This document shows, piece by piece, positions 2,897 through 64,000 of a DNA stretch of 64,000 nt (position 1 is its first letter; each line of letters opens with the position of its first letter). Origin of the DNA: a virus; IMG/VR virus record IMGVR_UViG_3300031754_000002, positions 41,859 through 105,858 of that record, one strand, 5' to 3'. A program made the translations under genes and the position numbers. The notes under the pieces were generated by a model. That model saw only the letters and a program-made list of their open reading frames with translations, did no database searches and was not told the origin of the DNA.

Positions 2897-4201
2897 CTAG
2901 TATTCCGCACTCACTTCTAGTCCACTGCCTTCCATATAGGCAAGGCCCGTCGGATAACGATGCAACGCTGCCGCATAGCCATGAAGCTGGAACCGTGCCT
3001 GCAACGTCCCGGACAGAACCTCCTTGAACACGCTCGTATGCTTCGGCGACTCGAACAACACACTGTCGGTCGGACGTGCGCACACAATCACGTCGCGGTT
3101 TTTCCCTGCCCCAAGAGTCGCAGGAATCGCATCTGACAAAAATGTCGGCCAGCCAAGGATCGGGGGAGCGACAGCAGGCCGCGAGTCATCGAACGTGTAC
3201 GCCACGGGAGGGAGCGCTTGATGCCCAGGAACCGCGAGAGGGAGGTTCTGCAAATCCTCAGCACCCCCGAGATAGCACCAGCGAGCGGTCCGCATCAACC
3301 ACACCTCCGGCGGACAGTTCCGTGCATCCCCCAGCTTTGCCGCGACCTGCGACAGCGCAGCGAACATTTCATAGCCCTGTTTACCCGTGTACTGCACTAC
3401 CGACACGCCACCCGCACCGGTAGTGAGATTCAGCACACCCGCGATTCGCTGGTTCGCTTTCCCCGTGCCAGTAAACAGCGACTCCTCAAGCCTGCGGTCA
3501 TAGGACTCCAACAGGTCCTTCAACACCACTACATCCAAGGCGGCAGTAGCCGGTGATTGTTCAAGCTGCTGCATCGAACAATCCGCCTGCCCCGCGAACG
3601 TCTCACACCACGATTCAACCGCCGCATCCGTGAAGTCCCGTTCCGGCGCAGGCGTGACATCAGATACTCCCGGCGCGTGAGTGCCTTCCACGATACGCGG
3701 CAGGTTCACTTCAACCACGCCCGTCGGCAAATCGAAAGTAGGGATCATGCTCGCGTAAACCCGCTTGGCCCTCGCGGCAGTGGCAAAATACTCATTGGCC
3801 CACCACGGCACCCCAAAAAACTCGCCACCAGTGACACGGCTAGGGTTCACACGAAACTCCGCGCCCTCAAGCCTCCGCTGCTGCAACCTTTCACTCTCAA
3901 CAGCAATCTCTTTGGCGTGACGCTCCAACCGTGCTCTCGCCCGCTGATCATTGCTGATCTGCGCACGCGCCACGTCCGCGAAGTAGCTTGCCTGCTCCTC
4001 GCGTGGAAGATGACCCTGAAAGCGTTCATACACCATCGGCTCACGACGTATCTCAACGCGCGGTGAAAGCCGCTGTAGCTCAGCATGGTACGCACGAGCG
4101 CTAACAACCGCTTCCGCCTCGATACGTGCCCGGACTTCGGCCGGGATCGCAGCGCCACGGTCCTCCTCGACAGTCTCGTCAAGCTCTAGCGTGTCGCTCA
4201 T
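2897..4201 (-). CDS. Major capsid protein, HK97 fold
   Basis: 434 aa downstream of the prohead protease. Capsid-like motifs: LEESLFTGTG, WLMRTARW, ILGWPTFLSDAIP. Confidence 0.85.
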   Translation of the reverse strand: MSDTLELDETVEEDRGAAIPAEVRARIEAEAVVSARAYHAELQRLSPRVEIRREPMVYERFQGHLPREEQASYFADVARAQISNDQRARARLERHAKEIAVESERLQQRRLEGAEFRVNPSRVTGGEFFGVPWWANEYFATAARAKRVYASMIPTFDLPTGVVEVNLPRIVEGTHAPGVSDVTPAPERDFTDAAVESWCETFAGQADCSMQQLEQSPATAALDVVVLKDLLESYDRRLEESLFTGTGKANQRIAGVLNLTTGAGGVSVVQYTGKQGYEMFAALSQVAAKLGDARNCPPEVWLMRTARWCYLGGAEDLQNLPLAVPGHQALPPVAYTFDDSRPAVAPPILGWPTFLSDAIPATLGAGKNRDVIVCARPTDSVLFESPKHTSVFKEVLSGTLQARFQLHGYAAALHRYPTGLAYMEGSGLEVSAEY

Positions 4202-5979
4202 CGCGCCAACCTCAACATGTCCAGTTCCTGCTCAGCACGACGCGTCAGATCAACCACAACAGCCGAGCGACCGTTCGTCTCCTCACTGTCATCAGCACCC
4301 TGAGCCTCATCAGCCTTACCGAGCGCGGTAGCAGCCGCTTCCAAAGCCTTCGTGACCTTCTCGTCGGACGGACTGTCCATATCACCGGTCTGTTCGGCTA
4401 GCGCCTTAGCAACAGCCTCTTTCGCCTCGTCGATCGAGTCAGACACACCCTCGTCAGCATCGTCTCTGGCCTCAGCCTCATACTCGGCGCGTAGCTCACG
4501 CACGCGCTCCGTGTACTCCTCGCCCTTCGCCGCTGCCTTCGCTTCCAGGCCCTCCCAGAACGATGCAGGCTCAGACTCCGACGGCAGTAGACCCGAAAGC
4601 TCGTCTCCGGCCTCCGCGAGCTTATCCACCAAGCCCTGAATCAACTGTTCCTTCGCAGACGACAACGCTTTACCCGCACGGAACTCATACTCGCCATCCG
4701 TTGAGCGAATACTTGTCGTGCTACCCGTTGACGGTGATGCGCCGAATGTGACGGCACTCACATCTCCGCCGTGCAAGGTCACACCCTTCACTTTGCGGTC
4801 AGTTAGCTCATCATTCCAGTCATCATCGGTGCAGCGAAACGCGAAACTCATCTGATCCACGAGCCCGCGCTCCATCTTCAGCTTTAGCCTCTGTGCATCC
4901 ACGTCCCGCGGGTCAAAGGTCGCGTTCACGAGCAGCCCCTTGGATGTTTCCTCCAGCCTCAACGTGCCCGGAATGTCCGAGTCCTTACGTTCCGTTCGTG
5001 CAAGCGGCAAGCCTTCGTGTTCCACTCGAAACACGCAATCCGGTTCCTCTTTCAATGTGCGGCGAAAACTGCCACGGGAAATAGTCTCCGTGAAGCCACC
5101 AACCGAATATGGCACATCAAAAAGTGACGCATATCCTTCAAAATGGAACATGCCATCATCGTCTTCGCTGCCGTCCCGGAACTCACATTCACGCACCGAG
5201 AACTGCCGGTGCTCCAAGCCCTTCGCGTTACGCAGATTTTCGACCCGCCGCTTACGCAGCTCAAACTGTGCGGCGCTACGCGAATCCTTCTCGATTTCGC
5301 CCGTGCCATCACAATCCGGGCACTCCTTACCCTTCACCTTGCCACTACCATCACACGTCGGGCACGTTTCCATGTCCTCAGTGTCGTTTTCCACCGCACG
5401 CCGACCATTCGCCTCCGGCGCATATGTGGTGACACGCCGCACCTTCTTAGGCGTCCCCAACGTCACATTATCATCGGCGTCCACCATGTACGTCACCTGC
5501 CACAACACGTCTTCGCGTTCATACACCGCCCACTCGTCAGTCATGTCCGAGATGTAGACGTAGGAATATTCGCCCTTTTTAGGCTTCGGGAGCGATTCGA
5601 CTATCGCCTGCTGCACCATCTGGCGACGGTCATTGTAGGTTTCGCGCTCCTCAAGCGTTGACCACACCGACTTTTCTTCTTTCAGCGATCCATCACTAGA
5701 CCAATTGTCGGGTATGAGCGAACTGAGTTTCAGCGCCTTGGCACGCTTAATGATGTGCGCACGGATTGAGTCATGGCTCGCATCTCCACGTCCGACCGCT
5801 TTGATCGCTTTTTTTAGGTCGTCTTCGTCCCCGATCGGGTACGAGCCATCGGCCATTGCTTCGCCTTTTTTTGCCATTTCGTCACGGTCGGCCTTCTTGT
5901 ACTTCGCGCGCCACTCCCGCTCAAGTGACCGTTCGACCGTCACGATGTCAGTCTCGACCGGCTCAGTCTCAACACCCAT
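4198..5979 (-). CDS. HK97-family prohead protease with N-terminal extra domains and an acidic C-terminal tail
   Basis: FEGYASLFD, FTETISRGSF, VEHEGLPLART, QMSFAF, DVSAVTFGA. Probable start MGVETE at 5979 after GGAGG. Confidence 0.85.
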   Translation of the reverse strand: MGVETEPVETDIVTVERSLEREWRAKYKKADRDEMAKKGEAMADGSYPIGDEDDLKKAIKAVGRGDASHDSIRAHIIKRAKALKLSSLIPDNWSSDGSLKEEKSVWSTLEERETYNDRRQMVQQAIVESLPKPKKGEYSYVYISDMTDEWAVYEREDVLWQVTYMVDADDNVTLGTPKKVRRVTTYAPEANGRRAVENDTEDMETCPTCDGSGKVKGKECPDCDGTGEIEKDSRSAAQFELRKRRVENLRNAKGLEHRQFSVRECEFRDGSEDDDGMFHFEGYASLFDVPYSVGGFTETISRGSFRRTLKEEPDCVFRVEHEGLPLARTERKDSDIPGTLRLEETSKGLLVNATFDPRDVDAQRLKLKMERGLVDQMSFAFRCTDDDWNDELTDRKVKGVTLHGGDVSAVTFGASPSTGSTTSIRSTDGEYEFRAGKALSSAKEQLIQGLVDKLAEAGDELSGLLPSESEPASFWEGLEAKAAAKGEEYTERVRELRAEYEAEARDDADEGVSDSIDEAKEAVAKALAEQTGDMDSPSDEKVTKALEAAATALGKADEAQGADDSEETNGRSAVVVDLTRRAEQELDMLRLAR

Positions 5980-6066
5980 GCGGACCTCCTTCGGAAACGA
6001 AAAGCCCGCAATTTGCGGGAAGTGAGCACAACGCACCTGTTAGCGTGTGCTAACGTCTGCGCGAAT

Positions 6067-6228
6067 GTGAAACAAACTGGGCTTCGACTAGAAGATGATC
6101 TACTTGCGCGGGTAGAAGCTGCTCGTGGTGACGTGCCACGTGAAGTGTTCCTTCGTCGCGCAATCGAACTTATGCTCAACACTAAACGAGAGGACTCCGA
6201 TGGCAGCACGACCCGCACTGGTTCCTGA
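6067..6228 (+). CDS. Ribbon-helix-helix (CopG/Arc-like) DNA-binding protein
   Basis: MKQTGLRLEDDLLARVEAARGDVPREVFLRRAIE fits the RHH pattern; divergent from the protease gene. Confidence 0.65.
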   Translation: MKQTGLRLEDDLLARVEAARGDVPREVFLRRAIELMLNTKREDSDGSTTRTGS

Positions 6229-6730
6229 ATCCGGCCCGTATGAGATTCTGCAAGGACTCATAGCCGAGGTGCTAGCCAACGGTGACTTTGTACCTGCGGA
6301 GGAAGCCCTGCGTATCGACAGGCTCATGCGCGAGAAGCATCCAAGACAACATGCTGCGTTTTTGGAGGCCCAGTCCTATCGCCTTTACTACGAGATACTG
6401 CAAGGTGCCTACCAAAGCCAGCGGCAGCGTTCGCGTCACCACGCTCCCGCTAGTGAATTCGGCCGACGTGCTACCGGCAAGCACGATGATGTCTCAGTGT
6501 TTATAACGTGGCGCTGCAAGGTAGACGATGCCAACACTCAGCGAACGATCGGCGACATGACCGGAGCCGATCATCTCTATGTCGCCGACAGCTATCGCGG
6601 CGATAAGCAACGCGCAGCGATGCTAGAGGCATTTCACCGTGCAGTCGCAAAGAAGGCTGGTAGGCGCAAAACAAGCGAGGTCTTTTCAGAGGACCAGTTC
6701 CTCGCACTCTACGAAAGCATCGCTAAATAG
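6200..6730 (+). CDS. Hypothetical protein, candidate accessory of the RAMP cassette
   Basis: Start MAARP at 6200 after GAGGA; overlaps the RHH gene; 176 aa, predominantly helical-looking. Confidence 0.65.
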   Translation: MAARPALVPESGPYEILQGLIAEVLANGDFVPAEEALRIDRLMREKHPRQHAAFLEAQSYRLYYEILQGAYQSQRQRSRHHAPASEFGRRATGKHDDVSVFITWRCKVDDANTQRTIGDMTGADHLYVADSYRGDKQRAAMLEAFHRAVAKKAGRRKTSEVFSEDQFLALYESIAK

Positions 6731-6746
6731 CACGACGGCCCTTGTT

Positions 6747-6875
6747 GACTGGCCCAGCCGTTGCACCTCCCCGCTGCCTTTCCGACTCCGCTGCCCACAC
6801 TGCTCCTGCCCCGCCCCACGCTCCCGACTCGTCATCACAGCTCCCAGCCGAACAGGCCTGCCCAATCCTCCCGAC
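6747..6875 (+). repeat. 5-nt-phased array A: three units GAC-(NNNNC)n-NNCC; candidate guide RNA array
   Basis: GAC at 6747, 6784, 6826 and 6873 gives spacings of 37, 42 and 47 (5n+2). Example unit: tcgtC atcaC agctC ccagC cgaaC aggcC tgccC aatcC tccc GAC. Confidence 0.75.
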
Positions 6876-6913
6876 CTCCTGAACTATTACTAACCAAAAC
6901 ACGAAAGGCCAAC

Positions 6914-7627
6914 ATGACCAGCATATTCGAGCCATACCGGCGCAAGAATTATCCGTATGTATTCGTCGCCTCGATCCACCTGCACACGATCGCGGGCGGC
7001 GTGCCCCTAAACGAGACAATTCTTGAGGGACACCTCAAGCGCAAGACCGCCGCACCCGATGACCTAATTCGCTCCGAGGTCGCCTCAATCATGGTCGAGG
7101 AGGGACTAAGTGCCGATGAGGCCATTGAGCGTGCCGCGAAACGCAAGGGCCTTGTGGGCTTTGCGAAGGACAGCAACGGCCTTTATGTGCGCGGCTTTCA
7201 AGTCAAGGCGATGCTTGTAGAATCGGCGTGCATCGCTGCCGCCGAGGGACGCATCCCGAAGAAATGGGGCCAAATGTCCGAGCAAGGAAAGGCACTCAAG
7301 AGTTGGTTTCCCGAGCATGTGTTTGTTCTCGATGACCGGATTCACCTCGGCGTGGACGAGCCCACCGAAATTCCACAGTCGTTTATACACAAGGTAGGCC
7401 CGAAGGGGCCGATGAGCGCTATCCAGTACACGGAGCTCGTCCGCGATGCCGACGTATCCTTCGCGGTCGAGACAGACCACGACTTTCCCGAGGATGTTTG
7501 GGCCGCGATTTGGCTCACAGCCGAGCGTAACGGCCTTGGCGCATCACGCAAGCTCGGCTATGGCACTTTTGAGAGCCGCAAATGGCAGAAAATGTCATCC
7601 CGTACCCGTAAACTTAAGGCCGCATAA
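6914..7627 (+). CDS. Stand-alone Cas7/RAMP-superfamily-like protein
   Basis: 237 aa from ATG 6914 after GAAAGG. N-terminal strand followed by GGVP; LYVRGFQVKAMLVESA resembles the RAMP IPGSSxKGxLR helix; C-terminal Gly-rich loop GLGASRKLGYGTF resembles the Csm3/Cas7 G-loop. Confidence 0.7.
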   Translation: MTSIFEPYRRKNYPYVFVASIHLHTIAGGVPLNETILEGHLKRKTAAPDDLIRSEVASIMVEEGLSADEAIERAAKRKGLVGFAKDSNGLYVRGFQVKAMLVESACIAAAEGRIPKKWGQMSEQGKALKSWFPEHVFVLDDRIHLGVDEPTEIPQSFIHKVGPKGPMSAIQYTELVRDADVSFAVETDHDFPEDVWAAIWLTAERNGLGASRKLGYGTFESRKWQKMSSRTRKLKAA

Positions 7628-7633
7628 TCTCTC

Positions 7634-7865
7634 GACACCGCCCGCTCGAAACACCGCACGAACCTGTCAGCCCATCCGACCAGTCAAACCAATCCGTCGC
7701 GCCTCGATACTATGCGCCGCACCCGACATTCCTCCTCGTCGATACCCCTCGGCCCCGCCTATCTCCCCATCCCTTCCGACAGCCCCCCGTCGCCCTCGCC
7801 CTCACAGTACGCCCCCTCTCTCTCGACACCCCTGCCGCGACACTCCGCACCCCTCCGCTTCCGAC
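7634..7865 (+). repeat. 5-nt-phased array B: CGAC-delimited units of (NNNNC)n; candidate guide RNA array
   Basis: CGAC delimiters with GAC at 7634, 7678, 7725, 7778, 7825 and 7863. Example unit: cagtC aaacC aatcC gtcgC gcctC gataC tatgC gccgC accc GAC. Confidence 0.75.
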
Positions 7866-7883
7866 TAACCGAAAGGACCACCG

Positions 7884-8921
7884 ATGACCGATGAGCCGAG
7901 TCGAAGCGACGAGATCAAGCACGTAGAAGGAGAGCTAAAGTCCCTTGCGAACCAAGTGGGCGTTGCGATAGGGCGTCTCCGTGCATTGCTCGGGGACGAG
8001 TTCGTCAAGAAGGTCCATGCCGCCGTGACTGGACGAGTTGCCTTTGACGAGGCGCAGCCGCTCACAGATGCGGATGCACGGGCATGGAGCGAGGCGAACC
8101 CCGGCAAGCAGGTACGTTTTACGGTGGAGTCCGAGGTCAAGCCCACAGGCGCCCGAAAGTTGGATGACTGGCTGGACGTGAAGGCACCCAAGGGCACCGT
8201 CGAGATCCGCAGCAATGAGATCAAGGAACTGGAGAAACAGCTAAAGGCGATCCCCGGTAAACTCACCGTTGCGGAGCTAGGCTGGATTCACAATCGTCTT
8301 GGCGAACTCTATAGGATGCCGGTGAAGGGCAACGCGGCACAGCAATCCTTTGCGCAAGCCTTCGGTATGGCACCATCGGAAATACATACGATCGAGGACG
8401 CGATTGTTGAGCTAGCCGACAAGCTCGGCGAGATGCGCACGGACATTACATCGCTCCGTCAGACCGTGGGCGAGCTGCAAACCCCGTTTGAGCCATACGA
8501 GCCGCCAGTGCTCGCCAAGATACTTCGTCCGCATCTGCTCGCGCTAGACGATCACGGTGAGGACGAGTGGGCTGAGGGATCGTTCGGCTGGGGTGAGTGT
8601 TTGTGGGTGCCCGGCAAGGTGGGCATTGATGTGACGGAGATCAAGGTTGAGGCGCTGGCCGCCGGGACGGACAATATACACGGCGCGCAAGTGAAAACCT
8701 ACGCCACCTATCGTGAAGACCACCACGATACCACACAGCGCGAACTTGTTGAGTGCATCGCGCGGGAGGCAGCTAAGCGGAACGCAACTGTTGTGTATCT
8801 CAGTAAGCCGGCGCATCGCCATATCCACGGCGACTATCCTGGCGACACGCCGCGTTTCCTACAGCACTGGTGTTATGCGGCGTTTTTGAGTGCGGCCCGC
8901 GCCGCCGGAGACGAGCAGTGA
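7884..8921 (+). CDS. Hypothetical protein
   Basis: 345 aa with a GAAAGGA RBS directly after array B. Confidence 0.6.
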   Translation: MTDEPSRSDEIKHVEGELKSLANQVGVAIGRLRALLGDEFVKKVHAAVTGRVAFDEAQPLTDADARAWSEANPGKQVRFTVESEVKPTGARKLDDWLDVKAPKGTVEIRSNEIKELEKQLKAIPGKLTVAELGWIHNRLGELYRMPVKGNAAQQSFAQAFGMAPSEIHTIEDAIVELADKLGEMRTDITSLRQTVGELQTPFEPYEPPVLAKILRPHLLALDDHGEDEWAEGSFGWGECLWVPGKVGIDVTEIKVEALAAGTDNIHGAQVKTYATYREDHHDTTQRELVECIAREAAKRNATVVYLSKPAHRHIHGDYPGDTPRFLQHWCYAAFLSAARAAGDEQ

Positions 8922-9205
8922 GTGACGACTTCGGCAAACTGCACCAAGCCGACAACTCCGCCAGCCTCAACGGTGTGACACTCCGCGACCTTACCGAGGC
9001 TTTCGACGCCGAGTTTGAGAATCGCCTCATCGCAGGCATCTATCATCTACGCGAAGGAGACACCATGACCACAACCCCGAACCCCTTGAAGCTGAAAGGT
9101 ATGCGCCAAATCGGTCCGCGACGCGGACTATGCCTTATCCCTCGCCACAACGGCGTAGGCGCCCTGCTCGGCGCAGACATAGAAATCACTACTACCGAAC
9201 CATGA
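8918..9205 (+). CDS. Hypothetical protein
   Basis: GTGA overlap with the previous stop. Confidence 0.45.
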   Translation: MSDDFGKLHQADNSASLNGVTLRDLTEAFDAEFENRLIAGIYHLREGDTMTTTPNPLKLKGMRQIGPRRGLCLIPRHNGVGALLGADIEITTTEP

Positions 9206-9367
9206 ACCTGAGCATGTTAGCCGTGCCGTCTATGAACTCGTGTGCGATTCGCTACTCGACAGACGGATAGATAATCCACACGACCCCGCTCAGCGCAAGG
9301 TATGGGTGCGCTGCATGACCGAGGAGCACGAGCAGGAAAGCAATCGTCTCGCCGGGTTCTGAGGGGC

Positions 9368-11846
9368 CTACTTAGCTGGCGTCAACACCTTCCCGTCACC
9401 GTTCGATGACGGCACAGCCGGCTCCGGTGCATACTTCGCTTCGATGGCCTGTTCCGCTTCCGCCATCACTTTTTCAAGTAGCGTCGTGTTAATCGGCGAG
9501 TTCAGTTTATCGCCGTCCGGCAACGCCGGCAGGTCGAACAGTGCTCGTGCGTCGTTCGGCGTGAAGTAGCCTCCGAGCGTCCCGAGCGAGCCAGCGTTCG
9601 CGCGCTCAAGGGTATCCCCGCGCAGACGGTGGCTCATGTCGATCGCCACGAACTGCCCTGGCGGGTGGATCGCGGTCATCGCGGCTTCGTAACGGCCCGT
9701 ATAGTCCTGCAACGTGTTTTTCGTAAAGCCTAGCTCCTGCTGCTCGATCCCCCGATAATCGACCCCACGAGTTGTGAACAACCACGCCTTCGGCTAGGAA
9801 GGAGTGATTACCCGCAACCGCGAGGTCATAGACTGGCACCTCAACTTTCGAGCGGTCGATTTTGATTACACGCTGCAAGATAACGTCGTCGTACTCCCAA
9901 CCGTAGCTCGGGCTCTGCCGGCGACCATCCCAGCCGCCAACGTTGCCGCCCGTCCATCCCTCGTCATAGCGCCCTAGTCGTATTGCTGGTCGAGTGACGA
10001 GTCGCGCCCGCTTACGCGCGCTATTGGCACCGATACGACTATTGAAGAACACAGTCGAGAGAGCAAGTTGATACTTCTGGCCCGACCGCACACGACGGCC
10101 AGCAATCACCGCGTCACACGGCGGTCGTCCCAGGTGGACTCGTCCAGCCGGAACACCCACTTGGATGCACAAGTGGCGGATATCCTCTAGCAGGAGTCGG
10201 TTACACGATGCGAAGCTAATCGCCCCTGCCTTGTTGACACTCCCGTCTGCGTCGAGATATCCGCGCAGGAATGCTAGCTGTAGCTCCGGCTTGAGTTCGT
10301 ACACCCAACCCGGCACTCGCTTTGTATGCGCGTCGCCCGTGAACCCGCAGTCGTCAAGCAGTTCGCGTGCGTCGGCCGACGAGAAGCGCGTCCTCGTGCC
10401 TGTGCGTATCCCCCGATTGGGTGCGTTGTCTGTGTAGGGTTCTACGCCGAACTCATCGCGTACGACCTGGCAGTAGTGCTCCATGTGATCGGGCTTGCTC
10501 TCGTGGGCGAGCTCGAAACGGTTTTTGTCCTGTGAGCCATCGCCCGTGTAGAGTCCACAAAGCTCCATCGCGCCGACCGTAAGCTGGCGCCCATTGGGCG
10601 CATACTCATCACCCTGGTCCCCGAAGCCATGAGGCACGAGCAGGTAATCCTTGATCGTAACCTCATCGGCGCGAACCCAAACCGTTTCCCAGGCGCAGTC
10701 GCCACTCGCACGGCCCTCTGGCCGTCCAAAGTATCGGCGCACTGGCAAAACATGGTTTGCCGTCAACTTGACAGTGCGAGCCGATGTCTGGATGCTCAGG
10801 AGAGGCTTGTGGCCGGTTAGTTGCCGCGAGACGACCGTTGCAGGCTCGATCCCGCGCTCACCGAGCGACCAAACCTCCTCGCCAGCCTGAATCTCGCAGA
10901 TTGGCCGTGGTCCCTGCGTCGTGAACACCTGCGCTTCGGCGGGCAGACACGAAACTCGTTCAGTCAGTCCGATCATGTGCGGGGGGCACCGAAAGATCGT
11001 GGATGCGATCTCTGATGCCGACCATTGAAGCGATTCTAGGAATTGGGAGTCCTGCGGGGATATCGTGATCGGCTTGATTTCCGTGTCACCCGTCACGACG
11101 GCTGGAAGATGCGAGCTATTCAAGCCCTGGTGCGCCGCCATAAACGAGCGAACCATTTTCTTTGTCTGGTCCGGCGACAGGTCACCCTTGACCTGGATCA
11201 CGATCGACGGGTTCGCGCTATTGCGGAAGTACTGTAGCCCATAGGTGGACTGCGAAAGCGACTTGCTAAACGCCAAGCGCTGCGCCTCAATTGGGTTAAT
11301 GCCTTCCAACATTCCCGGAAGCCAGAGGAGCTTGACGTGAAATACATCTTGCCTTGGCACAACTTTATTGAAGAACCGATACTGGAGTTCTCCTTTACGC
11401 AGCCGTTCGACATGCGCACTGTCGGCCGGTATGGGCTTGATCTGCGTCGGGTAGAGCTGCTTGTCGCGGCTGATGATCTGGCCGAAGAAGTTGCCACGAA
11501 TGGCGAGGGACGCGACGAACTGGACGATCCAGTCGAAAAGCCCAATCTCGCAGTATGGTTCGGTGAGGAGGGGAGAGGGTTTTAGCTCTTTCGCCTTTCG
11601 TAGTACCCTGTTGTTGAGCAGCAGAACGGGGGAGTTCGCTACCGAGCTAGAAAGAAGGTTAGCGCATGAGTAGACGGTCGCTATCGAGAGCGCCGCCTCT
11701 TGGCTTACACCCATGCCTCCAGACCCACCGAATCCCCCGATTTCTGAGTTCGTAGGCTACGGGGGAACGCTGTTGCCCCATTCGGTGCCCGGCCGCGCCG
11801 CGCGTGCGTCCATTGTCTGTGACAGCGCGCGAAGGATCAACGACAT
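9368..11846 (-). pseudogene. HK97-type portal protein with an intein; in-frame TAG near the N-terminus and a frameshift just after the intein
   Basis: Portal motifs ALSIATVYSC, LAIRGNFF, DSQFLES, FRCPPHMIG. C-terminus GIEQQELGF...TPNDARALFDLP lies in another frame (9368-9781). N-terminus reads MSLILRALS...NSVPP*PTNSEIG. Confidence 0.8.
9771..10949 (-). mobile_element. Intein in portal (Cys1, about 393 aa) with LAGLIDADG homing endonuclease
   Basis: S|CLPAEAQV ... TANH ... LCGLYTGDG ... FLRGYLDADG ... VYDLAV ... VVHN|S. Confidence 0.9.
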
Positions 11847-19059: not shown

Positions 19060-20412
19060 ATGGGCAAGCTCACGAAACTAACCCCAAGCCAAACCAAGCA
19101 TCTCGCGGCGAGTTATGAGGAATGGCTATCCGTCGGCCGCTGCACCGAACCAGCCGATCGGCCAGCAATGGAGACAGCGGTCCGCGCGATGTACGCCGAG
19201 ATTGGCCAGCCTCCACCAGCAGTCGTCTGGCTGGACTCTCCGTTGGCTGGCGTGTGTGGCTCCTGGTTCCTATCAAACCTGTTGAAGACGTTGCGCAACG
19301 ACGCAAACCAGCTCGGGGACCAGCTCAGGGACCAGCTCAGGGACCAGCTCGGGGGCCAGCTCAGGGGCCAGCTTGGGGACCAGCTCAGGGGCCAGCTCGG
19401 GGACCAGCTCTGGGACCAGCTCTGGGGCCAGCTTGGGGGCCAGCTTGGGGACCAGCTCAGGGACCAGCTCAGGGGCCAGCTCAGGGACCAGCTCAGGGAC
19501 CAGCTCTGGGGCCAGCTCGGGGGCCAGCTCAGGGGCCAGCTTGGGGACCAGCTCAGGGACCAGCTCTGGGGCCAGCTTGGGGACCAGCTCAGGGGCCAGC
19601 TCGGGGGCCAGCTCAGGGGCCAGCTCGGGGGCCAGCTCAGGGGCCAGCTCGGGGGCCAGCTCAGGGACCAGCTCAGGGGCCAGCTCGGGGACCAGCTCTG
19701 GGACCAGCTCTGGGGCCAGCTTGGGGGCCAGCTTGGGGACCAGCTCAGGGACCAGCTCGCACAATGCTGGTGGGCACAGCATGAAGCCGCGTGGATCGCA
19801 TTTTACTTGTGGCCCGAGACGAACCTAGCCGTCAACTACAAGGAACAGGTAAGTCGGCGTCTCGCCCTTTGGGAGACAACCGCGCGGTCTAGCTCATGGT
19901 GGTGGCCGATGATCGGCTTGGTTGTCCTTACGGAGCGACCATCCAACGTGTCCGTAGATGGTGAGGGCCGGCTACATGACGAGCGAGGTCCAGCGCTCGG
20001 CTACCGGGATGGGTGGGGCGTATGGTCGATCCACGGTGTACGAGTGACACCAAAGATTGTCGAGCACCCAGAGAGCCTAACGGTGCAAGAGATCCGGGAC
20101 GAGCCGAACGTGGAGGTTCGACGGGTGATGCTCGAACGGTTCGGTGCGGACCGCTTCATGGCGGAAAGCAACGCTGAGCTTATCGGCGAGGATGATTGGG
20201 GGAAGCTGTGGCGGATACCCGACGCGCCAGATGAGCCAGACGGTAAGCCGCTGGTGCTCGTTGAGATGCTGAACTCAACCCCGGAGCCAGACGGCTCGGT
20301 ACGCACATACTATGAGCGTGCTCACCCTGACGTGCAGACACCTTTGGCGGCGTTGGCTTGGCAGGCGAACATGAGCGAGAGCGAGTACATGCAGATGGGG
20401 GCGCAAACGTGA
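19060..20412 (+). CDS. DUF6745-like protein with a central QL[RGW][DG] tetrapeptide repeat
   Basis: C-terminal RLHDERGPALGYRDGWGVWSIHGV, EPNVEVRRVMLERFG, NSTPEPDGS. Confidence 0.75.
   Translation: MGKLTKLTPSQTKHLAASYEEWLSVGRCTEPADRPAMETAVRAMYAEIGQPPPAVVWLDSPLAGVCGSWFLSNLLKTLRNDANQLGDQLRDQLRDQLGGQLRGQLGDQLRGQLGDQLWDQLWGQLGGQLGDQLRDQLRGQLRDQLRDQLWGQLGGQLRGQLGDQLRDQLWGQLGDQLRGQLGGQLRGQLGGQLRGQLGGQLRDQLRGQLGDQLWDQLWGQLGGQLGDQLRDQLAQCWWAQHEAAWIAFYLWPETNLAVNYKEQVSRRLALWETTARSSSWWWPMIGLVVLTERPSNVSVDGEGRLHDERGPALGYRDGWGVWSIHGVRVTPKIVEHPESLTVQEIRDEPNVEVRRVMLERFGADRFMAESNAELIGEDDWGKLWRIPDAPDEPDGKPLVLVEMLNSTPEPDGSVRTYYERAHPDVQTPLAALAWQANMSESEYMQMGAQT
19309..19752 (+). repeat. 37 x 12-bp tandem repeat CAGCTY-NGG-GRC (coding)
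   Basis: Read directly; variation is confined to three positions per unit. Confidence 0.95.
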
Positions 20413-28184: not shown

Positions 28185-28703
28185 TCATAGCAAAGCCTCT
28201 CGGACAGATCGCCGGCGATACTGATTGCCGTCACCGCCACCCGCGAATCGGGAGTTGAAGCCAGCCGCCTCAATCCCCGCGTTCCAGGTGCCAAACTCCG
28301 CCACGACAGTGGTCGCGTAGGGCCATCGGTCATCGTTTTCCCAGCGGATAGCCCGCTCATCGTCATTGTTTGCCCGAGCGCGCGCTGGAGCCCAATCGGG
28401 GAAGGCTGGCGGCTCATCATGAAGCGCAGCCCATCGACGAATCGCATCAACCAGTGCTTCGCGAGTCCATACCTTGCGTTCCGCGCCATTGTGTCTCGCT
28501 GAACAAACCACGCAGCGAATCGGCGCGTTTGGACCACGGCCATCGGAGCCATTCAGCGAAGCGCCACAGTCAACGCAAGGGATCGAATAGAGAGTCCGCT
28601 TCCGACAGCGGTCTGAGCACCACTTCGGAGCCCTGCCACGCCTTTGTACTCGCTCGAAAGACGCGCCGCAGCCAGCGCAACGAAACAAACGCACGCCAGT
28701 CAT
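28185..28703 (-). CDS. Zn-finger protein with a homing-endonuclease-associated repeat
   Basis: CAGC...WCSDRC; WTREALVDAIRRW...FGTWNAGIEAAG. Confidence 0.55.
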   Translation of the reverse strand: MTGVRLFRCAGCGASFERVQRRGRAPKWCSDRCRKRTLYSIPCVDCGASLNGSDGRGPNAPIRCVVCSARHNGAERKVWTREALVDAIRRWAALHDEPPAFPDWAPARARANNDDERAIRWENDDRWPYATTVVAEFGTWNAGIEAAGFNSRFAGGGDGNQYRRRSVREALL

Positions 28704-29365
28704 CGCCCGCGCACCCCATAGGTGTTTCGGCCGAGAAGACGCCTAACAACACCCTGGCTCAAGCCCGTCGAGAAGCAGATTTGGCGCTCAGTCAAGTGTT
28801 TCCCGGCCAACTCCGAGACCCGTGCTCGCTGCTCGTCAGTGCCCTCGTCGTCCGATCCGTTTACACGCTCCTTGGCAGCAGCAACGATCGCGTTCGTCTC
28901 GACTTTCCGGCAGAACCGCGGTGTTGTCCGGAGCGCCTTAGCGACCTCATCAACCGTCCAGCCCTTCTTCAACTCGGCTACAACGCGTTTTTCAAGCTGC
29001 TCGGCGGTCTCTTCGGTGATCTCGACCATCGGGCGCTTGCGCCAATGTTCTAGATCCGCCTCAGCCGCGTCCTTCACGGCCTTCCTGCCACCGAGCCCCA
29101 CTTTGCGGTTCCCCCGAGCACACAAAACACACGACTCAGGCTCCCGTGGGATATGGAACGTGTGATTCCATCGTTCCTGCCAAAACTCGTGGGGAAGCTG
29201 CTCTGAAGCACCATCCAGGCGCACTCCTGGGGGCATCTTCGAGTCTGGTGGAGCAGCACCGCCGGACGAGTTGAACTGCGATGTGGTGCCCCACGGCAGG
29301 AGATACTTCATCTCGAAGAGGATGCGCTGCATCTCGCTCGCTAGCTTCTCGGGATCGTCGGTCAT
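28700..29365 (-). CDS. Hypothetical protein with C-terminal HTH-like segments (late regulator candidate)
   Basis: GWTVDEVAKALRTT and LTERQICFSTGLSQGVVRRLL. Confidence 0.45.
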   Translation of the reverse strand: MTDDPEKLASEMQRILFEMKYLLPWGTTSQFNSSGGAAPPDSKMPPGVRLDGASEQLPHEFWQERWNHTFHIPREPESCVLCARGNRKVGLGGRKAVKDAAEADLEHWRKRPMVEITEETAEQLEKRVVAELKKGWTVDEVAKALRTTPRFCRKVETNAIVAAAKERVNGSDDEGTDEQRARVSELAGKHLTERQICFSTGLSQGVVRRLLGRNTYGVRGR

Positions 29366-63456: not shown

Positions 63457-63640
63457 GGTAGTGGGTCAGTTTGGGATTCGTCCCCACGGGACAGGTTGCG
63501 GGGTCTAGTGTCGCTGGCAATCAGCCAAGCGGCCCCGGCGCGGATGGTAGTCCGACACCGGGGCCTTGACACGGAGGTGAAGCTCCATGCCCGACGAGAA
63601 CCCTACCCCCGACGAGCCTGCGCGCGACTTCGGCAACGTC
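63457..63640 (+). mobile_element. Truncated left end of an IS1-family element related to 15158-18006
   Basis: IR GGTAGTGGGTCAGTTTG plus about 180 bp closely matching 15158-15340, including the start of the passenger ORF MPDENPTPDEPARDFGN. Confidence 0.85.
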
Positions 63641-64000
63641 GACCCCGACCGCGACCACGACCGCGACCACGACCCGAGGACAGCCGTGCCGGTCACGACG
63701 ACCACGACCACGACCACGACCGCGACCACGACCACGACCACGACCCCGACCCCGACCGCGACCACGACCGCGACCGCGACCACGACCCCGACCGCGACCA
63801 CGACCGCGACCGCGACCACGACCACGACCGCGATCCCGACCACGACCACGACCCGAGGACAGCCGTGCCGGTCACGACGACCACGACCACGACCACGACC
63901 GCGATCCCGACCACGACCACGACCCCGACCCCGACCGCGACCACGACCGCGACCGCGACCACGACCCCGACCGCGACCTCGACCGCGACCGCGACCACGA
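63641..64000 (-). repeat. Hexamer repeat (TCG-NGG)n forming tandem 179-bp units, each encoding MTGTAVLG-(S[WRG])n
   Basis: GTGACCGGCACGGCTGTCCTCGGG starts at 63875 and 63696; each GTG overlaps the TGA of the previous unit. Confidence 0.8.

What the first reader, a model, noticed from the sequence alone, without database searches (positions are those of the whole stretch)
6067..7870. Lone Cas7/RAMP-like gene sandwiched between 5-nt-phased non-coding arrays: candidate minimal RNA-guided phage system
Seen: a plus-strand cassette inserted antisense between portal and prohead protease, in the order RHH regulator, 176-aa ORF, array A (6747-6875), 237-aa ORF (6914-7627), array B (7634-7865). The 237-aa ORF has the Gly-rich loop GLGASRKLGYGTF and the helix LYVRGFQVKAMLVESA. 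I recognised no cas1/2/3/5/6/8/10 and no repeat-spacer CRISPR in the window. Established: RAMP/Cas7 proteins polymerise along a guide RNA with a fixed nucleotide step and hold one base per step outside the duplex. Inference: each CCGAC-delimited unit is a guide RNA coated by one RAMP per 5 nt. The invariant C would be a protein-bound anchor and the variable positions would spell a gapped target code, perhaps silencing competing phages or host defence genes. This recalls the VIPR-type phage RAMP systems with GGY/NN pentamers as I remember them, but the grammar here is different (C-phased, CCGAC delimiters). It may be an undescribed class.
Basis: partly seen in the sequence, partly recalled or inferred. 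Interest (0 to 1): 0.95.

Follow-up and report, generated by a model that had tools for sequence, protein, structure and literature searches.

The report
Divergent phage VIPR system, C-phased guides
This phage cassette is a divergent member of the recently described VIPR family (a lone Cas7-like protein plus arrays of 5-nt-phased guide RNAs); its arrays end each pentamer in C instead of using GGY, and guides in sister loci match conserved codons of rival phage genes by the published two-read, one-skipped code.

Summary
The 237-aa ORF (6914-7627) folds as a Cas7/Csm3-type RAMP, with AF2 pLDDT 87.7, Foldseek E 2e-7 and VIA Z 11.4. By profile-profile comparison it is a remote homologue of the SUSP1 Vipr family (94% probability, E 9e-8).

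Both flanking non-coding stretches are 51% C. They are cut by CCGAC anchors into units of 37-53 nt. Counted from each anchor, the fifth base is C in 43 of 59 pentamers, against about 30 in shuffles (p about 1e-4).

The same grammar, (N1 N2 n3 y4 C5)n punctuated by GAC, lies next to about 70 of 84 homologues, in arrays of up to 2 kb. It is nearly always C-rich on the gene's coding strand. In 38 loci a conserved 176-aa helical partner, the ORF176 family, lies upstream.

Reading N1N2 and skipping one target base finds in-frame targets for guides in sister loci:
- helicase motif VI, 22/22, in 11 contigs;
- the HExxH codons of an XRE/M78 regulator, hit by guides from four loci;
- rival vipr genes, 16/16, with the guide's own vipr spared.

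No target was found for this window's own guides, and no RNA data exist.

This is therefore not an undescribed class. It is a VIPR variant with a non-canonical C anchor. 2026 preprints already describe VIPR and flag non-canonical repeats. Which strand gives the guide RNA is unsettled; I put the C strand at about 70%.

The parts
6005..6019 (-). Terminator-like hairpin (CCCGCAA/TTGCGGG) with a T-run down to about 5995, just left of the cassette and directly before the protease RBS. Its role is unclear.
6019..6061 (.). Overlapping imperfect inverted repeats (GTTAGC...GCTAAC core) upstream of the RHH ORF. A candidate operator/promoter region of the cassette; this is inference.
   Evidence: sequence
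6067..6228 (+). Small ribbon-helix-helix-like ORF (53 aa), the putative regulator of the cassette.
   Evidence: RHH_1 E 0.007, 16.7 bits against a cut-off of 20.5. One homologue in the same position in L011.
6200..6730 (+). 176-aa helical protein, the candidate Vipr accessory protein (vap) of this clade.
   Evidence: Homologues lie upstream of vipr on the same strand in 38 of 84 loci, with the array in between. AF2 pLDDT 90.3. No Pfam, PADLOC or PDB match: Foldseek E above 1, VIA Z at most 4.2.
6745..6875 (+). Array A. Three units (37, 42, 47 nt) of NNnyC pentamers between TTGAC/CCGAC anchors. The last anchor is 38 nt before the vipr ATG, and that gap holds only an AT-rich leader with the RBS.
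6914..7627 (+). vipr-like gene: a 237-aa Cas7-fold RAMP with G-loop GLGASRKLGYGTF.
7632..7865 (+). Array B. Five nominal units (44, 47, 53, 47, 38 nt); two are well phased and three are degenerate, with variant internal anchors. It starts 5 nt after the vipr stop and ends 18 nt before the next ATG.
7884..8921 (+). 345-aa ORF of unknown function downstream in the same orientation. It is not found next to any of the 84 homologues, so it is probably not part of the conserved system.

Best explanation
The cassette is a VIPR-type RNA-guided DNA-silencing system of a divergent clade.

Proposed mechanism:
1. The + strand operon (RHH, vap-like ORF176, array A, vipr, array B) is transcribed as one RNA. 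This is inferred.
2. The arrays are cut at or near the GAC punctuation into guides of about 40 nt. This is inferred.
3. One RAMP protomer binds each pentamer N1 N2 n3 y4 C5. It sequesters n3-y4-C5, with C5 in the pocket that holds the pyrimidine Y3 in SUSP1 Vipr, and presents N1N2. This is inferred from homology and from residue conservation.
4. The N1N2 dinucleotides of successive pentamers pair with target DNA, skipping every third target base. One guide therefore reads codon positions 1-2 of 6-11 consecutive codons and ignores wobble changes. This is shown in silico for sister loci.
5. Binding silences the gene, as demonstrated for SUSP1 VIPR in the literature. This was not tested here.

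Targets seen for sister loci are conserved catalytic motifs of rival phage or host regulators and rival vipr genes. The likely role is therefore inter-phage competition. The targets of this phage's own 5-8 guides are unknown.
For: Fold: AF2 pLDDT 87.7. There are 150 Foldseek PDB hits at E of 1e-3 or better; every hit listed is a Cas7/Csm3/Cmr4/Cas7-11/Csf2-type CRISPR effector chain, top E 2.2e-7. VIA-align gives type VII Cas7 Z 11.4 and Csm3 Z 10.0-10.2.

Homology: hhalign of the 65-member family against the 38-member SUSP1 Vipr family gives probability 94.4%, E 9.4e-8, over 137 columns.

Conserved arrays:
- C-rich flanks (45-57% C, about 17% G) lie beside most of the 84 homologues.
- Lag-5 and lag-10 peaks appear in nearly all long arrays.
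- CCGAC occurs 1004 times against 239 expected, and GACTACCC 147 times against 2.9 expected.
- In the anchored profile of 499 units, C5 is 0.87-0.90, y4 is 0.5-0.74 and positions 1-3 vary.

Orientation: direct (C on the coding strand) in 52 arrays and inverted in 4. In the type II family there are 233 YNNGG runs on the gene strand and 0 on the other strand.

Leader: in 16 loci the last CCGAC lies 16-31 nt before the vipr ATG, with only an RBS in between. The C strand must therefore be transcribed as the vipr leader.

Code, case 1: the L034/L035 guide matches 22/22 to TAnGTnCAnATnGTnGGnCGnGTnCTnAGnCC. These are the codons YVQMVGRVLRP, SF2 helicase motif VI. The match is in frame and occurs in 11 contigs that differ at wobble bases. 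It is absent from the guide's own records.

Code, case 2: guides from L001, L013, L017 and L019 hit the antisense of the AHELGHLV(M/L)H codons of an HTH_3 + Peptidase_M78 gene, scoring 19/20, 18/18, 18/18 and 17/18.

Code, case 3: the L017 guide matches 16/16 to the KVAEGWLK codons of seven other vipr genes, while its own vipr has 2 mismatches.

Controls: 14 real guides against 3 order-shuffled guides reach at most 1 mismatch.

Selection: the homologous guides L001 and L013 differ at 7 of 16 n3/y4 sites but at only 1 of 16 N1N2 sites.

Residues: R212 aligns with SUSP1 R179, part of the Y3 pocket. The G1/G2 contacts D177, W178 and R138 align with A210, S211 and E (contacts from 10.64898/2026.04.26.720927).
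Against: - No RNA data exist for any member of this clade.
- No target was found for the window's own guides: own genome, IMG/VR exact scans of three guides, 401 Actinomycetota genomes and all held loci.
- Array B is partly degenerate.
- The rule test on DNA fetched before any rule-based search is only weakly positive: 41 real against 24 shuffled guides at 1 mismatch or fewer.
- Two of the three target sets were reached through loci fetched by that same rule.
- Only 1 of 12 L035 guides hits the helicase contigs.
- The canonical GGY motif is absent from the vipr strand.
- C-rich, G-poor untranslated RNA would be a good Rho substrate (my own knowledge). That speaks against long C-strand transcripts.
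- The host is unknown.
Confidence: 0.8

Rival explanations
1. Same system and same code, but the guide RNAs come from the G-rich strand, antisense to vipr. They would read (G r n N N)n with a 3' GUCGG end, which is the NNNGG / YNNNG / NNNNG variants listed in the first VIPR preprint.
For: - The preprint says all seven types use GGY/NN 'or a related consensus', and it lists NNNGG, YNNNG and NNNNG. The reverse complements of this clade's pentamers fit these: GGNNN in GC-rich loci and GTNNN in the AT-rich L079-L083.
- The conservation gradient on the G strand (first G strongest, then the second base, then the third) parallels G1 > G2 > Y3.
- The phase is locked at the G strand's 3' end, like a 3' tail.
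- GC hairpins followed by T-rich runs on the minus strand lie between the vipr stop and downstream arrays in L073, L079 and L083.
- A minus-strand terminator-like site lies at window 6005-6019.
- G-rich RNA escapes Rho (my own knowledge).
Against: - It would put the guides antisense to vipr in 52 of 56 arrays. In type II they are sense in 233 of 233 runs.
- Gaps of 16-31 nt between the last anchor and the ATG leave no room for an antisense promoter outside the coding sequence.
- The arrays lie tightly between co-oriented vap and vipr genes.
- The G1/G2-contacting residues are not conserved, while the Y3-pocket arginine is.
- The three upstream inverted arrays have larger gaps to vipr (90-154 nt). 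That fits divergent promoters for C-strand RNA.
- The October 2026 preprint, which orients clusters by neighbouring genes, reports cores such as GAC/NN and CAC/NN.
Confidence: 0.25
2. In this particular phage the cassette is a decaying or idle copy. The protein and arrays are of the VIPR kind, but the guides no longer have targets or are no longer processed.
For: - Three of five units of array B are poorly phased and interrupted by variant anchors.
- Unit lengths are 5n+2, against the family norm of 5n+3.
- No targets were found.
- The arrays are short (3 and 5 units), whereas relatives have up to about 45.
Against: - The vipr and ORF176 reading frames are intact and conserved. The closest relatives are 82% and 80% identical, and no frameshift is present.
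- Array A and two array B units are almost perfectly phased.
- Failing to find targets is expected when the host and its phages are unsampled. Of the four guides from other loci that were scanned in IMG/VR, three also found nothing.
Confidence: 0.12
3. The C-rich stretches are not guides. They are regulatory leaders, for example Rho-loading or attenuator sites with YC dinucleotides, or protein-binding DNA, that merely co-occur with the RAMP gene.
For: The arrays have a C/G ratio of about 3 and regularly spaced YC, the composition typical of rut sites (my own knowledge). They lie in the 5' leader of vipr.
Against: - A rut site needs neither a strict 5-nt phase reset by GAC anchors nor hypervariable N1N2.
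- It would not give 22/22, 18/18 and 16/16 in-frame matches to conserved codons elsewhere.
- Arrays reach 2 kb and also lie downstream of vipr.
- The partner protein is a homologue of an RNA-guided filament former.
Confidence: 0.04

Closest known systems
VIPR type II (Escherichia phage SUSP1 Vipr + vrRNAs; bioRxiv 10.64898/2026.04.26.720920 and 10.64898/2026.04.26.720927)
   Same: - It is phage-borne, with a single small RAMP that has a G-loop and a thumb, and profile-level homology.
- Pentamer-phased non-coding arrays lie on both sides of the gene.
- A small accessory gene is present, and there are no cas genes.
- Targets are read as two bases plus one skipped base that falls on the codon wobble position.
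- Some guides are aimed at rival phages and rival vipr genes.
   Different: - The fixed part of the pentamer on the vipr strand is n-y-C, not G-G-Y.
- The protein is longer, 237 aa against 195 aa.
- The G1/G2-contact residues D177, W178 and R138 are replaced.
- Guides have 4-11 pentamers against 9-16.
- There is no structured 3' tail. Instead an 8-10-nt CCGAC(TACCC) handle separates contiguous guides in arrays of up to 2 kb.
- The upstream array abuts the vipr RBS.
- The accessory protein is unrelated in sequence. SUSP1 vap1 was not compared by fold.
Non-canonical VIPR-like arrays reported from language-model entropy periodicity (bioRxiv 10.64898/2026.10.21.760802)
   Same: Period-5 arrays lie next to Vipr-like folds, and their fixed cores do not fit GGY (examples given there: GAC/NN, CAC/NN, WGT/NN, TGH/NN). 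They are oriented by the neighbouring genes. The NNNAC pentamers of the AT-rich relatives L079-L083 fit 'xAC/NN'.
   Different: - The preprint's figures and cluster lists are not held here, so I could not check whether this clade (core n-y-C with GAC punctuation) is among its 21 clusters.
- No targets, reading rule or strand evidence are given there for the non-canonical arrays.
- It describes arrays of about 10 repeats, not GAC-punctuated multi-guide arrays.
Cas7 backbone subunits of class 1 CRISPR effectors (type VII Cas7, Csm3, Cmr4, Csf2, Cas7-11 domains)
   Same: The RRM/RAMP fold with G-loop and thumb is shared: Z 9-11.4, Foldseek E 2e-7 to 1e-5. Both are thought to polymerise on the RNA with a fixed nucleotide step and a base flipped at each step (established for CRISPR, inferred here).
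   Different: - Sequence identity is 9-16%.
- The step is 5 nt, not 6 nt.
- There is no repeat-spacer array, and no Cas5, Cas6, Cas10, Cas11 or Cas1.
- The guide information is interleaved with the fixed bases instead of lying in a contiguous spacer.

Membership tests
VIPR | Vipr protein: a minimal RAMP (RRM core, glycine-rich loop, thumb) | tested here: met
   AF2 pLDDT 87.7. Foldseek top hits are Cas7/Csm3, E 2.2e-7. VIA Z 11.4 for type VII Cas7 and Z 10.0-10.2 for Csm3. The G-loop GLGAxRxxGYGxF is conserved.
VIPR | Sequence-level relatedness to a bona fide Vipr (the preprint's own criterion was PSI-BLAST from X1U2U4) | tested here: met
   hhalign of family A1 against the SUSP1 Vipr family A3: probability 94.4%, E 9.4e-8, 137 columns. 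The single-sequence comparison was not significant (E 0.044). X1U2U4 itself was not available to me.
VIPR | vipr flanked by long intergenic regions holding tandem pentanucleotide repeats with fixed and hypervariable positions | tested here: met
   Window: C5 in 43 of 59 pentamers, p 1e-4. Family: 499 units, C5 0.87-0.90, positions 1-2 variable.
VIPR | Repeat consensus GGY/NN (YNNGG) on the vipr strand | tested here: not met
   The vipr strand carries n-y-C, not GGY. SUSP1 and 80 type II loci carry YNNGG on the gene strand only, 233 runs to 0. On the opposite strand the arrays read GGNNN/GTNNN, which fits the 'related consensus' variants named in the preprint. This feature is therefore not met for the canonical type, and it stays open for the wider family.
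VIPR | Minimal locus: vipr plus an accessory gene, no CRISPR array, no other cas genes | tested here: met
   ORF176 family lies upstream in 38 loci. No Cas1 in the record. No CRISPR-like tandem array. PADLOC gives only a weak Csm4-like hit to the RAMP itself. Other cas families were not searched one by one.
VIPR | Encoded mainly by phages and proviruses | tested here: met
   The window is part of a 105,858-bp virus record, and the cassette lies between portal and prohead protease. There are 75 homologues in IMG/VR contigs and one in Microcystis phage Mae-JY09.
VIPR | Non-contiguous target code: variable dinucleotides pair and one target base is skipped, usually the wobble base | tested here: inconclusive
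   Met for guides of sister loci: 22/22 on helicase motif VI, 18/18 on M78 HExxH, 16/16 on rival vipr, all in frame. No target was found for the window's own guides.
VIPR | vrRNAs are expressed, about 100 nt or less, and co-purify with Vipr; binding represses transcription | not testable with these tools
   No transcriptome or biochemical data are available. This needs small-RNA sequencing, RIP and reporter assays.
VIPR | Repeat tract followed by an invariable, structured 3' tail (type II) | tested here: not met
   Units are contiguous and separated only by CCGAC(TACCC). No hairpin tail of the kind seen in type II loci is present. The preprint describes tail-less 'staggered' arrays in other types, which I could not compare.
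CRISPR-Cas (class 1) | Repeat-spacer array plus a multi-subunit effector (Cas5, Cas7, large subunit) and usually cas1-cas2 | tested here: not met
   No Cas1, no repeat-spacer array, and only one RAMP gene in the cassette.

The most novel reading that the evidence does not exclude
This is a VIPR branch whose RAMP has been re-tuned from a GGY anchor to an n-y-C anchor. It keeps only the pyrimidine pocket, so C-rich sense-strand RNAs serve as guides. Dozens of guides of about 40 nt are encoded head to tail, separated only by a 3-nt GAC punctuation, inside the 5' leader of the vipr mRNA, so that guide processing and vipr expression are coupled. The guide sets include anti-vipr guides that spare the self allele through a single Lys/Arg codon difference. 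This would show that the fixed scaffold of the VIPR code is evolvable while the two-read, one-skip rule is conserved.
Probability: 0.5. Interest if true: 0.75.

Novelty: new variant of a known kind. Interest (0 to 1): 0.62.

Why it matters
VIPR was described only in 2026, and experiments exist only for GGY-type systems (small-RNA sequencing for types II, III and V). This clade covers about 95 protein clusters, mostly in phages of Actinomycetota, but it also reaches Chloroflexota, Betaproteobacteria and a Microcystis phage.

What the clade shows:
- The same gapped reading rule appears to work with a different fixed anchor and a much more compact multi-guide array.
- The residue swaps that go with the change are D177/W178/R138 replaced and R179 kept.
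- Three classes of natural targets are predicted: a replication helicase motif, an XRE/M78 regulator motif and rival vipr genes.

If the C-strand reading is right, there is a second, orthogonal scaffold for programmable gapped DNA recognition. It would also be a natural example of guide arrays processed out of the effector's own mRNA leader.

For this particular phage, the finding marks an accessory anti-competitor module inserted in the head-gene cluster.

Tried and rejected
1. Whole-array Fourier period-5 test: not significant. It was superseded by anchor-phased counting.

2. Pfam and PHROGs on the RAMP, ORF176 and ORF345: nothing useful. A PDB sequence search with the RAMP gave only chance-level nucleoprotein hits.

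3. The search for related loci with the full 65-sequence alignment failed because the alignment was too diverse. A 25-sequence subset worked.

4. Rfam, to find ribozymes that could fix the strand: none in 17 loci or in the window.

5. Consensus promoter and terminator scans: no sigma-70-like promoter in 5800-9800, and terminator-like sites at background frequency. Not decisive for the strand.

6. A shared 'GGGTAGT' between this clade's handle (reverse complement) and the SUSP1 tail start. I rejected it as coincidence, because other type II tails differ.

7. Early target search with exact 16-base seeds under 13 reading rules against 1.5 Mb of held DNA: no signal.

8. Collection and genome scans:
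   - Window guides: no self-target. IMG/VR exact scans of three guides gave 0, 1 and 0 hits; the single hit, in an AT-rich contig with 4 of 8 n3 matches, I judged to be chance. 401 Actinomycetota genomes gave 0 hits.
   - Guides from L010 and L072: no IMG/VR hit.

9. Wobble-type analysis of guide-target mismatches to fix the strand. There was only one informative mismatch (L001, T against C, which would be rU.dG for a C-strand guide). It may simply reflect an unsampled target variant.

10. Per-position divergence among 'homologous' units chosen by 70% identity was uninformative, because C-richness alone produces such pairs.

11. Fold searches for ORF176: no credible match.

13. The supplements of the VIPR preprint are not held. 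I could not check whether this clade is one of its seven types.
Full report
WHAT IS THERE

The window is the right-hand 64 kb of a single 105,858-bp virus record. Between the prohead protease (4198-6036, minus strand; Peptidase_S78 E 5.9e-20) and the portal gene (9606-11714, minus strand; phrog_12 E 4.5e-52) lies a plus-strand cassette:
- a small RHH-like ORF, 6067-6228 (weak, E 0.007);
- a 176-aa ORF, 6200-6730;
- non-coding array A, 6745-6875;
- a 237-aa ORF, 6914-7627;
- non-coding array B, 7632-7865;
- a 345-aa ORF, 7884-8921.

Both arrays are 51% C. CCGAC/TCGAC anchors cut them into units of 37, 42 and 47 nt (A) and 44, 47, 53, 47 and 38 nt (B).

Counted from each anchor, the fifth base of each pentamer is C in 43 of 59 cases. 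Shuffling within units gives 30.0 +/- 3.5, p = 1e-4. Positions 1 and 2 carry C in only 24 and 20 of 59. A Fourier test over the whole arrays is flat, because the unit lengths (5n+2) reset the phase. Array A and two units of B are almost perfect; three units of B are degenerate.

THE PROTEIN

The 237-aa ORF has no Pfam or PHROG match. It has 95 relatives in the large protein collection, none annotated.
- An AlphaFold2 model built on 65 of them is confident (pLDDT 87.7, pTM 0.80).
- Foldseek against the PDB returns 150 hits at E of 1e-3 or better. Every hit listed is a Cas7-family chain (type VII Cas7, Csm3, Cmr4, Cas7-11, Csf2), best E 2.2e-7.
- The Foldseek-independent aligner gives type VII Cas7 Z 11.4 and Csm3 Z 10.0-10.2.
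- PADLOC gives a weak Csm4-like hit over residues 149-222.

WHAT IS KNOWN

bioRxiv 10.64898/2026.04.26.720920 describes phage-encoded Vipr RAMPs with vrRNAs made of 9-16 YNNGG pentamers. Only the NN bases pair with DNA and one target base is skipped, usually the codon wobble. Targets lie in rival phages, satellites and other VIPR loci. The paper defines seven types, accessory vap genes and variant repeat consensuses NNNGG, YNNNG and NNNNG.

The companion structure paper assigns G1 to H17/D177, G2 to R138/W178 and Y3 to a pocket that includes R179. A third preprint, 10.64898/2026.10.21.760802, reports 21 clusters of Vipr-associated period-5 arrays with non-GGY cores such as GAC/NN and CAC/NN. 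It orients them by neighbouring genes and gives no experiments.

IS THIS A VIPR?

I fetched phage SUSP1 (KT454805). Its vipr gene is 28474-29061 on the minus strand, and its GGYNN arrays lie on the same strand as the gene.

A profile of this window's family against a profile of 38 SUSP1-family proteins gives hhalign probability 94.4%, E 9.4e-8, over 137 columns. The single-sequence comparison was not significant. The protein is therefore a remote Vipr homologue.

In the aligned G-loop, GLGA(S/A)R corresponds to SUSP1 GVGDWR:
- the Y3-pocket arginine is kept (R212 = R179);
- the guanine contacts D177 and W178 are replaced by A210 and S211;
- the thumb R138 is replaced by Glu.

THE ARRAYS ARE A CLADE FEATURE

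I fetched 84 loci that encode relatives: 9 from genomes (Nocardiopsis, Streptomyces, Streptacidiphilus, Nanopelagicales, a Caldilineaceae MAG and a betaproteobacterial MAG) and 75 from IMG/VR. One cultured phage has a relative, Microcystis phage Mae-JY09.
- About 70 loci have C-rich (45-57% C, about 17% G) non-coding stretches abutting the gene, up to 2 kb long (L012, L044, L067).
- Nearly all of the long arrays show lag-5 and lag-10 autocorrelation peaks; L046 does not.
- CCGAC occurs 1004 times against 239 expected, and GACTACCC 147 times against 2.9 expected. Anchor spacings peak at 28/33/38/43/48 nt.
- In 499 anchored units, C occupies positions 10, 15 and 20 in 0.87-0.90 of units, falling to about 0.76 by position 40. 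Pentamer position 4 is C-biased (0.5-0.74). Positions 1-3 vary, and position 3 is mildly C-biased.
- The grammar is best written (N1 N2 n3 y4 C5)n with a 3-nt GAC punctuation. The CC of CCGAC is the end of the last pentamer.
- AT-rich relatives (L079-L083, L073) use NNNAC.
- Units hold 4-11 pentamers, most often 5-7.
- A homologue of the 176-aa ORF lies upstream on the same strand in 38 loci, with the array between it and vipr. Its model is confident (pLDDT 90.3) and helical, with no credible structural match. It is the candidate vap of this clade.
- The RHH ORF recurs only in L011, and the 345-aa ORF recurs nowhere.

DOES THE PUBLISHED CODE APPLY?

I read N1N2 of each pentamer, inserted one wildcard between dinucleotides, and searched.

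(a) A 58-nt guide shared by L034 and L035 gave one exact hit in IMG/VR for 20 specified bases.
- The two bases of the first pentamer, which I had left out, also match, giving 22/22.
- The site is in frame in a 504-aa ResIII/Helicase_C gene beside a primase and a Rha regulator. It spells YVQMVGRVLRP, SF2 helicase motif VI, with every skipped base on the wobble position.
- The 22-base pattern occurs in 10 metagenome contigs whose wobble bases and flanking residues differ.
- It does not occur in the guide's own records, even allowing 3 mismatches.
- The guide's n3 bases agree with the skipped bases in only 4 of 11 positions, so n3 is not read.

(b) A guide from Nocardiopsis tropica (L001) hit one site in 15 of 51 Nocardiopsis genomes, against one control hit.
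- The site is the antisense of the codons AHELGHLVMH, the HExxH motif of a 415-aa HTH_3 + Peptidase_M78 protein.
- Guides from three other loci hit the same site: L013 18/18, L017 18/18 on the Leu variant of Streptacidiphilus, and L019 17/18.
- L001 and L013 differ at 7 of 16 n3/y4 positions but at 1 of 16 N1N2 positions.
- In one genome the gene lies in an ordinary chromosomal neighbourhood.

(c) An L017 guide matches 16/16 the antisense of the KVAEGWLK codons in the vipr genes of seven other loci, always in frame. L017's own vipr (…WLR) has two mismatches.

Across 221 guides against 2.5 Mb of held DNA, 14 real guides and 3 order-shuffled guides reach at most 1 mismatch, and 5 against 0 are exact.

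Caveats:
- Part of that DNA had been fetched by this same rule.
- On DNA fetched before any rule-based search the enrichment is modest: 41 against 24 at 1 mismatch or fewer for N1N2+1, and no other rule stands out.
- Of the four guides from other loci that I scanned in IMG/VR (L035, L010, L072 and, through genomes, L001), two found credible targets.

THE WINDOW'S OWN GUIDES

No target was found:
- own genome;
- three exact IMG/VR scans. The one hit is in an AT-rich contig and looks like chance;
- all held loci;
- 401 Actinomycetota genomes.

The host is unknown. The portal's best cultured relative is a mycobacteriophage at 38% identity over a third of the protein.

WHICH STRAND IS THE GUIDE?

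This is the main open point.

For the C strand (sense to vipr):
- Arrays are C-rich on the coding strand in 52 of 56 cases. In type II the repeats are on the gene strand in 233 of 233 runs.
- In 16 loci the last CCGAC lies 16-31 nt before the vipr ATG with only an RBS between. The C strand is therefore necessarily transcribed as the vipr leader, and an antisense promoter would have to lie inside the coding sequence.
- The three upstream inverted arrays have gaps of 90-154 nt, enough room for divergent promoters.
- The conservation gradient n3 < y4 < C5 fits loss of the G1/G2 contacts with the Y3-pocket arginine retained.

For the G strand:
- Its reading (GGNNN, GTNNN) equals the variant consensuses printed in the first preprint.
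- The phase is locked at what would be the 3' end.
- Hairpins followed by T-rich runs on the minus strand separate vipr from downstream arrays in AT-rich relatives.
- A minus-strand terminator-like site lies at 6005-6019.
- Long C-rich, G-poor untranslated RNA should attract Rho (my own knowledge).

I put the C strand at about 70%.

VERDICT

The finding is a genuine, intact-looking VIPR-type cassette of a divergent clade, not a new class. Three things seem not to be in the accessible text of the preprints:
- the n-y-C anchor with GAC punctuation in compact multi-guide arrays lying in the vipr leader;
- the ORF176 accessory family;
- the predicted targets.

I rate it a new variant of a known kind, with interest 0.62.

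Noticed in passing
window 9368-11714 (-): The portal ORF contains an intein-like insert (CLPAE...VVHNS, with homing-endonuclease-like sequence). Its C-terminal portal part continues in another frame (9368-9781), which suggests an intein plus a frameshift or assembly indel.
   Followed up: no
window 63640-64000 (end of the 105,858-bp record): About 60 copies of a CGACCA/CGACCG hexamer run to the end of the record. All frames are open and low-complexity (Thr-, Pro-Arg- or Asp-His-rich). Whether this is coding or a terminal repeat is unclear.
   Followed up: partly
window 19307-19758: A 12-nt tandem repeat (ACCAGCTCAGGG), 37.7 copies at 87% match.
   Followed up: no
window 6005-6019 (-): A perfect 7-bp hairpin followed by CTTTTCGTTT on the minus strand, immediately upstream of the protease RBS. 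It could terminate antisense transcription coming out of the cassette or insulate the head operon.
   Followed up: partly
L017:3923-3970 against the vipr genes of L001, L005, L013, L019, L028, L051, L069: An anti-vipr guide. Its eight N1N2 dinucleotides match the KVAEGWLK codons of seven rival vipr genes exactly. Its own vipr (WLR in place of WLK) escapes with two mismatches.
   Followed up: yes
L169:990-2237 (-) and 14 other Nocardiopsis genomes; L168 (Streptacidiphilus): A 415-aa XRE-HTH + Peptidase_M78 (ImmA/IrrE-like) gene whose HExxH codons are targeted by guides from four different VIPR loci. In G004 it lies among ordinary chromosomal genes, with a GmrSD-like nuclease nearby.
   Followed up: partly
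L086 (Microcystis phage Mae-JY09, PP395641, 37713-38976): The only cultured phage in the collection with a homologue (31% identity). The gene is followed by a CCGAC-delimited C-phased array that runs towards the end of the genome record and is closed by a strong hairpin.
   Followed up: partly
L079-L083, L073: AT-rich relatives use NNNAC pentamers with the same CCGAC anchors. They have a GC-rich hairpin between the vipr stop codon and the first anchor. L083 has more units than L079 between identical array ends.
   Followed up: partly
L016, L018, L024 (upstream), L050 (downstream): Arrays inverted relative to vipr (G-rich on the coding strand). These loci lack the ORF176 homologue, and L018 and L024 also carry a direct array downstream.
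   Followed up: partly
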